NCBI GenBank assembly: GCA_951406725.2
Contig: OX597821.1
Coordinates: 79,236,001-79,300,000, forward strand
DNA length: 64,000 bases
Source: Octopus vulgaris
Taxonomy: Eukaryota
Direction: 5' to 3'
The notes beneath the pieces were generated by a model that saw nothing but the letters and a program-made list of their open reading frames with translations, had not been told where the DNA came from and made no database searches. This document shows positions 14,919-23,591 of the stretch, piece after piece. A program made the translations under genes and the position numbers. Each line of letters starts with the position of its first letter. The first letter of the stretch is position 1.

Positions 14919-16583
14919 TAGGTTGGTAATCAGTGGTGACATAACCGTAAACGCAGCATATGATATACAGACCGAATTACTCATACATTTTGATACACGT
15001 CCAGGCACACATCCATACACAGAGACAAAACTCTGATATATGTACATAAACATGTTTGCACTAATTCTTGCCGTTAACTGTAACGCACTCAATTATAGGA
15101 AGCCAGAGGAACAGGATCTCCCACATATTCACAAACAACAACGCAATATTTGGTCAAATACAGATATTGCACACACACACAGACGTATAAATGTAAGCAC
15201 CAAATTGTTATCCTGATCCATCATTCTTTCATATAACTCTTATCTAATTAATACACTCACACTAAAACACAGATTCACAAACAATAAAACGCTTCTTTGG
15301 AAAGACGGGTTAGGGTGCTTACAAAGAAGGATTGAAACATATTACATCTTCAGAAATATATCATCGAGAAAGCCTAAAATGTAAAATGATTCAACTTACA
15401 GAAGTTTTAAACGGAGCAGATTTCCGAAATCGTCTGATTGGATTTCCTTGAGATTATTTTTATTCAAGTGTCTGGAACATAAAATTGTTTTAATAAGAAA
15501 TTGTATAGAATATATTTGTGACAGAATTTTTGCTAAACAATTAGACGATGGGTTGGATGGAATGTAGAACTTGATGATGGTTTATTCCATGAATATGATG
15601 CCGACGATGGTGATGATAAGGAGGAGGAGGATAGGATATCGAAAGAGAGTGAGCATATAAGGAGGGAAAAGAACATGGATCGAAATAGAATGGGAATATT
15701 TTAAAGATTTAGTAATATAGTGTCAATGAAATAGTATAAAGAATACTTATCCAACTTACAGTTTATTTAAATTGGGAAGGTCATGGAAGGCTCCTGCTTC
15801 AATTTCTTCGATATTATTATTATGCAAGAATCTGTAACATACGAAGATGGAGAAGGTACACAAATTCATGATGTCGAATAAGAAGGAGACAAAGAAGACG
15901 TATTAGAAGAAGCAGCTACATGAAAGACGAGCGGGTATATTACGAGAGCAAAGAAAGAGGATCAACATCCACTACAACAAAAAGGAGAGGAGAAGTAAGA
16001 GGAATGAATGCAAGAGAAGCAGGGAGAGGATTATGTAAAATACAAACGAAGAAATTAGGATAAAATGAAGAATGAACGGAAGACGAAAACAATGAAGAGG
16101 AAAAAGATGATGCGGAAAAAGAATGGGAAAAAGGAAAAGGAGAAGTAGAAGAAGAAGAAGAAGAAGAAGAAGAAGAAGAAGAAGAAGAAGAAGAAGAAGA
16201 AGAAGAAGAAGAAGAAGAAGAAGAAGGAGAAAAAGAAGAGGAAGAAAAAGAAAAAGAAAATAGGAAAGAGAAGTAGAAAATAGGAGGATGAAGAAGAAGA
16301 AGAAGAAGAAGAAGAAGAAGGAGAAGAAGAAGAAGAAGAAGAAGAAGAAGACAAAGAAGAAGAAGACGAAGACGAAGAAGAAGACGAGGAGGAACAGAAA
16401 TATGAAGAAGAAGAAGAAGGAGAAGAAGGTGAAGAAGAAGAAGAAGAAGAAGAAGAAGAAGAAGAAGAAGAAGAAGAAGAAGAAGAAGAAGAAGAAGAAG
16501 AAGAAAAAGAAGAAGACAAAGAAGAAGAAGAAGAAGAAGAAGAAGAAGAAGAAGGCGAGGAGGAAAAGGAATAGGAAGAAAGG

Positions 16584-16615
<32 letters not shown>

Positions 16616-17595
16616 AGAAGAAGAAGAAGAAGATGAAGGAGAAGAAGAAGAAGAAGAAGAAGAAGAAGAAGAAGAAGAGGAGGAGGAGGAGGAGGAAGAA
16701 GAAGAAGAAGAAGAAGAAGAAGAAGAAGAAGAAGAAGAAGAAGAAGAAGAAGAAGAAGAAGAAGAAGAAGAAGGAGAAGAAGAAGAAGAAGAAGAAGAAG
16801 TAATAGTAGAAGAAGATGAAGAAGAAGAGAAAACGAAGCATAGGAAGAAAACGAATACAAAAACTAAACGAAGACCAAATGGGGAAAATGAGAGGACGAA
16901 AGAGTAAAAGAAGGACTAAAGAAAAAAGAAGGAAAAGGAGAAGGAAAGGAAGAAAAGCAATAGAAACGAGCAGTAATATATTGTGAATGAAATATTAACA
17001 ACAAGAATTATTCAACGTACATTGTTTTTAAATTTGGTAGGTCATGGATGGCTCGTACTCCAAGTTTCCGGATATTATTATTATGCAAAAATCTGTAACA
17101 TAAAAGTAGGAGAAGGTAAACAAAATCCTACTGTTGAAGAAGGAGAGGAAGAGAACTTGGAAGAAGAAGAAGAAGAAGAAGAAGAAGAAGAAGAAGGAGG
17201 AGGAGGAGGAGGAGGAGGAATTAGAGAAAATGATGATGGTGAAGAAGAAGAAGTAGAAGAGGGAAGAAGAGAAGAATAAAGGAAAAGGAGAAGAAAAAGA
17301 AGAAACGAATTGAAATTCGAAACGAAGAAAAATTATGGAGAAAAGGATGGAGAAGAAGCAGAATTCGAAAAAGAATATGAAGATAACAGAGAAGAGGAAG
17401 AAGATGATGAAGAAGAAGGAGAAGACAAAGAAGAAGAAGATGAAGAACAAGAAGAAGAAGAAAGAAGAAAAAATAAGGGTTGAACTATTAAGAAATAAAA
17501 GACGAATGATGGGGATGGGGACGAAAACGAAAATGAAGATAACAAGAGAAAGTAACGGAGATGAAGAACAGGGAGTTGACGAGAACCAACGTCTT

Positions 17596-17674
<79 letters not shown>

Positions 17675-20298: not shown

Positions 20299-20373
<75 letters not shown>

Positions 20374-21657
20374 CAGCGGTAAAGAAAGAAAAGACAGAGT
20401 GGATAAGAACAAGCAGCGTTGGACGGAACAGAAAGTATGCATTACAGCACATACTCACACACACATACACAAAGAATCACAAAACTCTATCGAAAGAGAG
20501 AGCATGAAAGGAGAAAGAAGAACGTGGAGCGAAAAAGAATGGGAAGATTTTAAAGATTTAGTAATTCATTGTCAATTTCATATTATTAACAAGTCTTTTC
20601 CAACTTACAGTGTCATCAAGCTGGGCAGATCACGGATGGCCCCTTTTTCAATTGTTTCGATATTATTATCATTCAATAATCTGTAAGATAAAAGGACGAG
20701 AGAGTAGACAAAAGTCACTATGTTGAAGGAGAAGAAGAAGAAGAAGAAGAAGAAGAAGAAGAAGAAGAAGAAGAAGAAGGAGGAGGAGCAGGAGGAGGAG
20801 CAGGAGGAGCAGGAGCAGGAAAAGAATAAAAAAGAAGGAAAAGAAGTAGCAAATGAATGGGAAGAAGACGAAGAAGTGGAAAAAGAAGAAAAATCGAACT
20901 ATGAAGACGAAAAAGAGGATGATGAGGATGTTGCTGAAAAACGAAAAGAAAGTAACAAAAATAAGAAAAAACGGAGAAAGAAAAATAAGCAGAAGAGGAA
21001 GGAAAACTACTACGTCTACTACTACTACTACTAGTAGTAGTAGTAGTAGGAGGAGGAGGAGGAGGAGGAGGAGGAGAAAGAGTAATAGTAGTAGTAGTAA
21101 CGGAAGAAGAGTCAGAGTGTAAAAGAAGAACAAGCAGGGTTGGTCAGAACGAAGAAGAAGGAGGAGGAGGAGGAGGAGGGGGAGAAGAAAAGAAGAAGAA
21201 GAAGAAGAAGAAGAAGAAGAAGAAGAAGAAGAAGAAGAAGAAGAAGAAGAAGAAGAAGAAGAAGAAGAAGAAGAAGAAGAAGAATGAGTCGAAGAAGTGG
21301 TAGAAAGACAAGTGCGGACAGAACAGATGAAGTGACTAGATTAGGAAATGAAACGAAATGGGAAGAAGAAAAAGGAATAGAAGGAGGAAGTCGAGTATGT
21401 GAAATACATCCTACGATAAAATAAAAAACACAAAACTAAGAAGAAAATGAAGAAGGAGGAGAAGAAGATGAAAAGGACGGAGAGGAAGAAGAAGGAAGAG
21501 TAGAAGATGAAAAAGAAGAGGAAGAAGAAGAAAAAGAAAGTAAAGGAATATCTGGATGTTGACGAAAAAAGAAAAGAAGGGTAGCAAGAATAAAAAATAA
21601 GGGAAATAGGAGAGGAAGAAAACCAGGAAAACAAGAAAAACTACTACTACTATTAGC

Positions 21658-21704
<47 letters not shown>

Positions 21705-23591
21705 AGTCAGAGTGGTTAAGAAGATAAAGCTGGGTTGACCGGAACAAAAAGTAGACTTGCTTAAACATGTTCAGATACACGCACGCAGAGACACACATTT
21801 TCAGACACTCACAACGTATCACACAACTGTATGGAAAGAGAGTGAGGATGCAGGGGGGGGGGGGCAAGAACGTGGAGCGAAAAAGAATGGCAAGATTTTG
21901 AAGATTTAGTAATTCATTGTCAATTTCATATTATTAACAGAAAGTTTCCAACTTACAGCGTCATCAAGCTGGGCAGATCACGGAAGATATTTACTTCAAT
22001 TTTTACAATATTATTATTTTCCAAAACTCTGTAAGAAAAGTAGAGAAGAGAGACAAATATCATTACGTTGAAGTCGTAGTCTAAAAGGACTTAGGATTAG
22101 GAGGAGAGGAGGAGGAGAAGGAGGAGAAGGAGAAGAAGAAGAAGAAGATGCAGAGGCTGGTAATCAGTTGTGATGTCGACGAAAACACCGTACGTGATAT
22201 ACAGACCGAATTTCACATATATATCGATACTCACGCAGGCACACATTCTCAGGCACACGGAGACAAACATCTGATATATATATATATATAATCATGTTTG
22301 CACTAACTGTCACTGTTAATTGTCATGCATTCATTTACACCAATCCTGAAGCACAGCTTCTCATACAGATTCACAAACAATAATACATTTTGGTCAAAGA
22401 CAGATTTTACACATACACAGAGACATAAAATGCAAGCACCAGATTGTTCACCTGATCCATCACGCTCTCATATACCCCATATCACGAACAATAAAACACA
22501 TCTTTGGAAAGAGTAGAGGGGTGCCTAGAATGAAGGATGGCAAGATATAGATTCGTGAATGAAATACTAAAAAATAAATCTGGTTCAACTTACAGAGTCA
22601 TTAAACTAGACAGATTTTGGAAGGTGTCTGATTGGATATTCTCGATACTATTAGAATTCAAGTCTCTGCAACATAAAATTGGGTTAATAAGAAAATGTAT
22701 AGAACATATTTGTGATGGATTTTTTGCTCAACAATTAGATGATGGGATGGATGGGAAGTAGAACCAGTTGATAATTCATTCTTTGAAGATGCTGGCAATG
22801 ATGACGATGGCGTAGATGATGATGATGATAAGGAGGTGGAGATGGAGGAGGATAATAGGATAATGATATTAGTAGAGTATGTAGTAGGGAAGGCTTGTGA
22901 TGTCGGAAATGATGAATACGATGATGAGCAAGTGGAAAATAATATACAGTGGGAGTTGATGATGAAGACGTTATGATGCTGATGATGGGGTGATGTTGTG
23001 AATGTTGATTATTCTGATAATGAGGTGGACTAACATGTCGGAGGTGATGGTGAATATGATATTCATTATGGTGTTGGCCGGGATGTTACTGTTGGAGTTG
23101 AAGTAATAGTGTTGATGATTCTGCATCTGATGGCGGTGGTGGTGAATATGCTGAATGGTGTTGATGACGAAGAGGACGGTGATGAAAGATAATGATTAAA
23201 TAAGTTTGATGTCGGTGATATGTTTACATCGTTTTAGACGAATAGAAAAACTGGTGAATGACAGAAATGAGAAAATATGAAGAAATCGTGTAAAAGAAAG
23301 GATGAAATGCACAAGAAAGGAGAGAAGTAGGGCGAGTAGGAGGAGGAGGAGGAGGAGAAGAAGAAGAAGAAGAAGAAGAAGAAGGAGGAGGAGGAGGAGG
23401 AGAAAAGGATGAAGAAGGAGCAGGAGAAGAATAAAAAAGAAGGAAAAGAAGTAGCAAATAAATGGGAAGAAGACGAAAAAGAGGATAATGAGGATGTTGC
23501 TGAAAAACGAAAAGAAAGTAACAAAAATAAGAAAAAACGGAGAAAGAAAAATAAGCAGAGGAGGAAGGAAAACTACTACGTCTACTACTAC

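What the first reader, a model, noticed from the sequence alone, without database searches (positions are those of the whole stretch)
15472..22593. Two cassette families carry their own intron flanks and are joined inside microsatellites
Seen: order in the transcript is A-B-B-B-B-B-A-A-A-A-A-A-B-A. Family A exons share the plus-strand flank CTG(G/C)AACATAAAATTGAGTTAA...TTTGTGACAGAA...GCTAAACAATT. Family B exons share CTGTAA...AGAAGG...GATGTTGAAG and GAACGTGGAGCGAAAAAGAATGG...GATTTAGTAAT. In mixed introns (15472-15759, 22029-22593) the switch from one family's flank to the other occurs at a GGA/GAA run. Inference: simple repeats act as shared recombination joints for unequal crossover or template switching between modules.
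Basis: partly seen in the sequence, partly recalled or inferred. Interest (0 to 1): 0.7.

Follow-up and report, generated by a model that had tools for sequence, protein, structure and literature searches.

The report
Microsatellite-hinged LRR exon array, octopus receptor
An octopus gene, likely an adhesion G-protein-coupled receptor, builds its leucine-rich-repeat arm from two old families of duplicated 72-base exons; intron microsatellites likely served as swap points for some exchanges between the families, but several junctions, including one of the two first flagged, are ordinary deletions.

Summary
The array is real. A minus-strand gene has a signal/LRRNT exon and 14 in-frame 72-nt phase-2 LRR exons in the order A-B5-A6-B-A. 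A and B are separate clades, each with its own intron flanks, although their donor flanks share an ancestor. Relatives are octopus LRR adhesion GPCRs; this gene's 3' end lies outside the window.

The microsatellite-joint idea holds only in part. Junction 22029-22593 has GGA/GAA runs in both parent types. Junction 15472-15759 does not: its B side starts in unique sequence 115-161 nt from any triplet run, so it is a deletion-type join. An unlisted A|B junction upstream of exon 1 fits best: a 166-nt B-type patch, 162/166 identical to 20811-21015, bounded by GAA/GGA runs.

In a by-eye list, 6 of 8 family-switch ends lie at runs (background 23-39%), against 1 of 12 other junction ends. Units are about 15-45% diverged, and an independent run carries the 15472-15759 junction unchanged, so this is old germline evolution, not somatic shuffling. 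It combines two known themes: LRR exon arrays (Tetrahymena, Ectocarpus) and microsatellite-bounded duplication (sea-urchin SpTransformer).

The parts
31469..31670 (-). First coding exon: signal peptide and LRRNT cap (ATG at 31650), ends in phase 2
   Evidence: Pfam LRRNT E 1.4e-6; 100% identical to NCBI model P0001
22594..22665 (-). E1, LRR exon, family A
21957..22028 (-). E2, LRR exon, family B
20609..20680 (-). E3, LRR exon, family B
18124..18195 (-). E4, LRR exon, family B
17021..17092 (-). E5, LRR exon, family B (weaker donor GTACGT; donor flank mostly lost)
15760..15831 (-). E6, LRR exon, family B
15400..15471 (-). E7, LRR exon, family A
13433..13504 (-). E8, LRR exon, family A
12192..12263 (-). 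E9, LRR exon, family A
11131..11202 (-). E10, LRR exon, family A
4168..4239 (-). E11, LRR exon, family A
3073..3144 (-). E12, LRR exon, family A
2002..2073 (-). E13, LRR exon, family B, with an unassignable acceptor flank
940..1011 (-). E14, LRR exon, family A; the gene continues beyond window position 1
23334..23415 (.). J1: A|B switch in the intron before E1, inside a GAG/GAA run present in both parent types
   Evidence: A side 23216-23333 matches 14560-14679 at 111/118; B side follows
23416..23651 (.). Young B-type patch with its TAG run, copied to or from 20811-21060; bounded by GAA/GGA runs at both ends in both copies; one 39-nt deletion between short direct repeats
   Evidence: 162/166 identical over 23416-23581; alignment
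22074..22153 (.). J3: B|A switch in intron E1-E2, containing the GGA/GAA tract; two-sided
21085..21440 (.). Relic of a lost B cassette inside intron E2-E3: start of a B donor flank joined through a GAA/GGA run to a B mid-intron segment (J6, one-sided)
   Evidence: z 6.6 and 3.5 against local triplet shuffles
15632..15637 (.). J4: A|B junction in the 288-nt intron E6-E7; short GGA run on the A side only, B side in unique sequence
   Evidence: spanned by one contig of an independent run
1611..1688 (.). J5: A|B switch in intron E13-E14; TAG run shared with B parents, A side ends in unique sequence
11261..11277 (.). J7: deletion of about 350 nt within an A acceptor side; both ends in unique sequence
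23905..24062 (-). Inverted relic of an A-type donor flank upstream of E1
   Evidence: 70% over 180 nt to 10399-10578, opposite strand, E 1e-15; alignment

Best explanation
This is a germline array of 14 or more symmetric 72-nt LRR exons in an octopus gene that is likely an LRR adhesion GPCR; it likely grew by tandem duplication of exon-plus-flank units through unequal crossover, and same-strand GAA/GGA runs likely served as pairing joints for some exchanges between the diverged A and B units. SHOWN: exon structure, the two clades, co-duplicated flanks, junction positions, and that runs are now the only long exact A-B matches. INFERRED: within a family, hundreds of bases of flank homology suffice for misaligned crossover, so no repeat is needed. 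Between families, unique homology has decayed to 15 nt or less, so strand exchange or template switching lands in the runs (J1, J3, the young patch). Other junctions (J4, J7, lost cassettes, donor-flank deletions) are deletions with little or no shared repeat. Because every exon is phase 2-2, any gain, loss, swap or skip keeps the frame and changes the length or binding face of the LRR solenoid.
For: Exons and open frame; clades; flanks. 6 of 8 family-switch ends lie within 10 nt of a triplet run of 12 nt or more, against 23.3% of TE-free intron bases (P 0.003); 2 of 4 switches are two-sided, against 3% expected per switch (P 0.005). Other ends 1 of 12; Fisher P 0.004 for the contrast. Longest exact A-B match 95-104 nt in runs, 10-15 nt with runs masked. 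61 of 64 counted triplet runs are purine-rich on the plus strand, hence in direct orientation. The young patch (162/166) is bounded by runs. J4 is carried unchanged in independent run X7: one contig over 14920-16075, 9 other letters, no gaps. Octopus relatives have 1-14 detected LRRs in varied A/B order, and five record pairs differ by whole 24- or 72-aa blocks.
Against: Only four switches, listed by eye after seeing the data. With a looser low-complexity background (38.8%) P rises to 0.043, and to 0.16 if J1 is left out. All ends together give 9 of 22, P 0.05. Half of the switches are one-sided. Homology must end at a run when the flanks beyond are unrelated, so tract ends cannot be placed more finely. 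Runs may have grown after the joins. Intron E6-E7 aligns at both ends with intron E13-E14, so both may descend from one ancestral B-to-A intron, with no family switch. The 7TM region of this gene was not seen.
Confidence: 0.48

Rival explanations
1. The microsatellites are bystanders. Each intron is a donor flank plus an acceptor flank conserved near the splice sites, with a fast-decaying repeat-rich middle. Mixed introns are ancestral, or the products of crossovers anywhere in that middle, so homology appears to switch at a run.
For: Runs plus purine-rich sequence make up 38.8% of TE-free intron. A and B donor flanks share an ancestor. E6-E7 matches E13-E14 at both ends with about 700 nt missing. 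Paralogues carry interleaved A/B orders such as ABAA and ABAAAABAABB, so A-B neighbours are old. 11 of 12 other ends avoid runs.
Against: J1 puts a B mid-intron segment behind an A acceptor side where no B exon follows, with runs at both ends and 97.6% identity to E2-E3. In J3 the switch zone is only about 80 nt and mostly run.
Confidence: 0.32
2. The runs are fragile sites rather than shared joints. GAA/GGA or TAG tracts stall or break forks, and repair by microhomology-mediated template switching or end joining joins a run to any nearby sequence, giving one-sided junctions.
For: J4, J5 and J6 each have a run at one end only. An inverted donor-flank relic begins about 130 nt from a 99-nt GAA run. 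A 39-nt deletion lies between short direct repeats. Fragility of GAA tracts is recalled knowledge; PMC11161834 was seen as a search listing only.
Against: J1, J3 and the patch's right end have the same run class in both parents. Most small deletions are far from any run.
Confidence: 0.13
3. The joins at repeats are assembly errors: reads or contigs from different introns were merged through GAA tracts.
For: J1 and J3 lie in repeats and were not checked against reads; the patch is near-identical between two places.
Against: J4 is spanned by an independent contig. The two patch copies differ by 4 substitutions and a 39-nt indel. The exon chain is open throughout.
Confidence: 0.04
4. The array is actively or somatically reshuffled, VLR-like, with the runs acting as recombination signals.
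For: Cassette architecture resembles that proposed for Ectocarpus ROCO genes (PMC3341825, passages). Paralogues vary in repeat number.
Against: Exons are 46-83% identical and flanks about 55-90%, while another run differs by 9 of 1156 nt with the same junction. All 14 exons are in-frame parts of one gene, not donor cassettes. No recombinase signal was seen. Exon skipping in relatives can explain diversity.
Confidence: 0.03

Closest known systems
Octopus-specific adhesion GPCR expansion, group 3 (Ritschard et al. 2019, PMC6408891; passages read)
   Same: Octopus adhesion GPCRs, 5 of 22 with LRRs. The window's first exon is 47/60 identical to P0006, which has LRR and 7tm_2 domains, and 37/59 to P0036, which has LRR and GPS.
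   Different: The passages seen do not treat LRR exon arrays or intron repeats. This gene has 14 or more LRRs, and its GPS/7TM part was not seen. No tree placing it in group 3 was built.
Tetrahymena 90-bp LRR exon arrays (Xiong et al. 2019, PMC6564038; passages read)
   Same: Fixed-length phase-2 LRR exons, exon-intron units duplicated together, shuffling attributed to unequal crossing over.
   Different: 90 against 72 nt; the helper repeats there are REP retrotransposon remnants, not microsatellites (search listing shows 0 occurrences of 'microsatellite'); thousands of genes.
Brown-algal ROCO LRR arrays (Zambounis et al. 2012, PMC3341825; PMC11378527; passages read)
   Same: 72-nt phase-2 LRR exons, variable number, inverted relics in introns, alternative splicing.
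   Different: Intracellular GTPases; the inverted elements there are whole exons. 'Microsatellite' occurs 0 times in the main text of PMC3341825.
Sea-urchin SpTransformer (Sp185/333) clusters (PMC3091723, abstract and outline; PMC8634487, passages)
   Same: Microsatellites at the edges of duplicated segments, proposed to drive duplication and conversion; inferred from position, as here.
   Different: Whole genes with flanks (2.7-4.5 kb) are the unit and the repeats are intergenic GA/GAT; here the unit is one exon and the runs are intronic GAA/GGA/TAG.

Membership tests
Octopus LRR adhesion GPCR | Signal peptide, LRRNT and typical 24-aa LRRs related to the octopus family | tested here: met
Octopus LRR adhesion GPCR | GAIN/GPS domain and secretin-type 7TM in the same gene | not testable with these tools
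   The 3' end lies beyond window position 1 and no genome is held; shown only for relatives. The NCBI model P0001 ends after E5 in unrelated sequence.
One-repeat-per-exon LRR arrays | Fixed-length symmetric phase-2 exons, one LRR each | tested here: met
   14 of 14
One-repeat-per-exon LRR arrays | Intron flanks duplicated with the exon | tested here: met
One-repeat-per-exon LRR arrays | Exon skipping or variable repeat number | tested here: inconclusive
   Seen among database records of relatives; not shown for this gene.
Microsatellite-bounded duplication (SpTransformer type) | Both edges of duplicated or converted segments lie at microsatellites | tested here: inconclusive
   Met for J1, J3 and the young patch; not met for J4, J5, J6, J7 and three further deletions
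VLR-type somatic LRR assembly | Incomplete germline gene with flanking donor cassettes | tested here: not met
   All cassettes are in-frame exons with splice sites
VLR-type somatic LRR assembly | Cell-specific rearranged DNA | not testable with these tools
   Only assembled contigs were available; they drop rare variants

The most novel reading that the evidence does not exclude
The octopus LRR adhesion GPCR family uses intronic GAA/GGA microsatellites as recurrent hinges for shuffling single LRR exons between diverged cassette families, within and between paralogues, so that receptor ectodomains are remodelled quickly in the germline and further varied by exon skipping.
Probability: 0.2. Interest if true: 0.65.

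Novelty: new variant of a known kind. Interest (0 to 1): 0.4.

Why it matters
If repeats in introns give diverged symmetric exons a common pairing surface, they extend the time over which exon shuffling can work after unique homology has decayed. That would be a concrete route by which repeat-rich cephalopod introns remodel the ligand-binding arm of an octopus-expanded receptor family. The array keeps datable junctions, so the long-standing proposal that microsatellites drive duplication (made for SpTransformer from position alone) can be tested across many paralogues. On this locus alone the effect is suggestive, applies to a subset of junctions, and both ingredients are known.

Tried and rejected
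No genome was held, so there was no genome-wide paralogue or downstream-exon search.

Expression: no RNA holder was listed on record. Eleven runs guessed to be RNA held 0.70 of the words of the first-exon stretch. Two of them (X12, X18) laid on 14920-16075 gave only 31-38 nt pieces and no joint; this says nothing for or against splicing of E6-E7. Run X3 had a hole over 15606-15783, so it is silent on J4.

Recombination scan within A units: 23 of 168 triplets had p < 0.05 (8 expected), best p 0.0015, not significant after correction and not independent; inconclusive.

The idea that E13's acceptor side is a diverged A side, and that A-A and B-B introns are reciprocal products of one crossover between TAG runs: alignments were weak and mixed (z -2.1 to 3.4 across 12 tests); not adopted. 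The truncated ends in introns E8-E9 and E11-E12 could not be assigned (z 2.0 or less). The patch's match to intron E4-E5 was not significant (z 1.5); its B origin rests on its second copy in E2-E3 (z 5.2) and on the adjoining B donor relic.

No full-length orthologue was found: the longer-protein search gave only generic LRR proteins and P0006, and the representative search was swamped by generic LRR proteins. P0002, an unnamed record 51/60 identical in the first exon, shows four B-like repeats, but it is a chimeric-looking model and was not used to count cassettes.

Earlier scan notes: none. No structure prediction was run.
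Full report
WHAT IS THERE. The finding lies in a minus-strand gene. A profile scan of both strands found 14 exons of exactly 72 nt with GT..AG sites, at 22594, 21957, 20609, 18124, 17021, 15760, 15400, 13433, 12192, 11131, 4168, 3073, 2002 and 940 (E1-E14); nothing else came close. Each encodes one typical 24-residue LRR, with phase-2 introns. An upstream exon (31469-31670) encodes a signal peptide and an LRRNT cap. Together they read 396 codons without a stop. The gene runs off the window at position 1. 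The first exon is identical to an NCBI Octopus sinensis model (P0001, XP_036361051.1) that stops after E5. Its relatives include octopus proteins with LRR plus GPS or 7tm_2 domains, so the gene is likely an LRR adhesion GPCR of the octopus expansion described in PMC6408891 (passages). That is an inference, because the 7TM part was not seen.

THE TWO FAMILIES. The order A-B5-A6-B-A is right. A and B are divided by the only starred branch of the exon tree (100/100); 9 of 11 inner branches are unresolved. Acceptor flanks are family-specific: 68-90% identity within A, 53-75% among E2-E6, and no A-B homology. Donor flanks of A and B are homologous, so both families come from one exon-plus-flank ancestor. 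E13 has an unassignable acceptor flank, and E5 lacks most of its donor flank. Exons are 46-83% identical, so the duplications are old.

THE TWO CITED JUNCTIONS. In intron 22029-22593 (J3), B homology ends near 22073 and A homology starts at 22154, with a GGA/GAA tract between. A B parent (E3) has a run right after the same flank, and an A parent (E7) has one right before it. This fits a shared joint. In intron 15472-15759 (J4), A homology ends at about 15632 next to four GGA units, but B homology starts at 15637, about 120 nt inside the B donor flank. The four B copies have no triplet run within 115 nt of that point. The intron aligns at both ends with intron E13-E14, with about 700 nt missing. 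J4 is a deletion-type join, not a shared microsatellite joint. It is real and inherited: run X7, not flagged as a source of this DNA, has one contig over 14920-16075 with 9 other letters and no gap.

Upstream of E1, a full A acceptor side ends in a GAG/GAA run (23334-23415). It is followed by a B mid-intron segment that is 162/166 identical to 20811-21015, then TAG, GGA and GAA runs. Both ends lie at GAA/GGA runs in both copies. This is the youngest exchange and the best support for the joint idea; its direction is unknown. The adjoining A segment is also unusually close to intron E7-E8 (109/118 against 95/125 next to the exon, Fisher P 0.0007), and its left limit is not in a run. In intron E13-E14 (J5) the B side has its TAG run, but the A side ends 107-187 nt from any run in A copies. 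Intron E2-E3 holds the relic of a lost B cassette, joined on one side to a run. Deletions in the A flanks of E10, E1 and E12 have both ends in unique sequence. An inverted A donor flank lies at 23905-24062.

Of 13,991 TE-free intron bases, 17.0% are in perfect triplet runs of 12 nt or more, 23.3% within 10 nt of one, and 38.8% in runs or purine-rich sequence; outside the array 1.5% are in runs. Family switches: 6 of 8 ends at runs (P 0.003 strict, 0.043 loose); without J1, 4 of 6 (P 0.029 and 0.16); 2 of 4 two-sided (P 0.005). Other junction ends: 1 of 12. All ends including the patch's right end: 9 of 22 (P 0.05). The list was made by eye after seeing the data. Left out were TE insertions, indels under 30 nt, the 39-nt deletion in the patch, a 31-nt insertion in E14's donor flank, and three junctions with no assignable parent (introns E8-E9, E11-E12, E12-E13). 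Events may not be independent. The breakpoints are therefore not independent of runs for between-family switches, but the runs are not a general joint.

HOW IT MOST LIKELY WORKS. Symmetric phase-2 exons tolerate any gain, loss or swap. Within a family, long flank homology likely drives unequal crossover. Between families the unique sequence shares at most 10-15 exact bases, while GAA runs give up to 95-104, and 61 of 64 counted runs lie in one orientation. Exchange between A and B units would therefore tend to resolve in the runs. The orientation bias could equally come from common descent or from splicing constraints. The main rival is that runs are bystanders in a decaying intron middle and that mixed introns are ancestral; interleaved A/B orders in relatives show that A-B neighbours are old. 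One-sided junctions also fit breakage at runs with microhomology repair. Somatic shuffling is unlikely.

FAMILY CONTEXT. Among 31 octopus or unnamed relatives scanned (chosen by hand for LRR content, and including this gene's own model), 1-14 LRRs were detected per record in varied A/B order. Five record pairs differ by whole 24- or 72-residue blocks, consistent with exon skipping or variable cassette number. These are gene models, not checked transcripts.

RELATION TO WHAT IS KNOWN. One-repeat-per-exon LRR arrays with co-duplicated introns are described in Tetrahymena (PMC6564038, passages) and brown algae (PMC3341825 and PMC11378527, passages). Microsatellite-bounded duplication is described for sea-urchin SpTransformer genes (PMC3091723, abstract; PMC8634487, passages). 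Eight searches of the open library listed no paper on LRR exon arrays in octopus or on intronic microsatellites as joints for single-exon shuffling. Only the top listings were seen where many papers matched (for example 15 of 342), most subscription papers are missing, and no supplements were read; those of PMC6408891 may list this gene.

VERDICT. Observation partly confirmed, interpretation partly supported. A new variant of a known kind, interest 0.4.

Noticed in passing
window 5625-10259: Retroelement in intron E10-E11 with a 775-aa RT plus GIY-YIG ORF (7260-9587), an upstream 399-aa ORF, and 99.7% identical 344-nt direct repeats (5647-5990, 9916-10259): a young, possibly intact Penelope-like element (label recalled).
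   Followed up: partly
window 15471-15527, in runs X7 and X3: Contigs of 572 and 563 nt carrying an A-type acceptor flank have about 8-10 times the depth of the locus contig (435 vs 46; 44 vs 6), with the same loose end in both runs: perhaps a younger, near-identical A cassette array elsewhere in the genome. Depth is not a copy number.
   Followed up: no
window 14316-14573: A 230-nt insertion with an internal inverted repeat (14326-14382 / 14432-14489) between two copies of a 14-nt word, like a target-site duplication.
   Followed up: partly
window 4885-5272: Inverted repeat of 92 nt, 94.6% identical, in intron E10-E11; MITE-like.
   Followed up: no
window 18760-20290: Decayed non-LTR retroelement fragment with an RNase H domain inserted in intron E3-E4, ending at CAG/TAG runs; limits read by eye.
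   Followed up: partly
window 1012-23822: Strong strand bias of triplet runs in the array: 61 purine-rich on the plus strand against 3; the pre-mRNA therefore carries pyrimidine-rich runs. Triplet runs fill 17% of these introns against 1.5% of the rest of the window.
   Followed up: partly
window 32015-40328: Several decayed non-LTR retroelement copies upstream of the first coding exon, including a 551-aa RT-like frame interrupted by a GAA run at 38080-38175.
   Followed up: no
window 56396-56410 and 56573-56585: Two minus-strand donor-like sites far upstream; possible 5' UTR exons of the LRR gene (read by eye).
   Followed up: no
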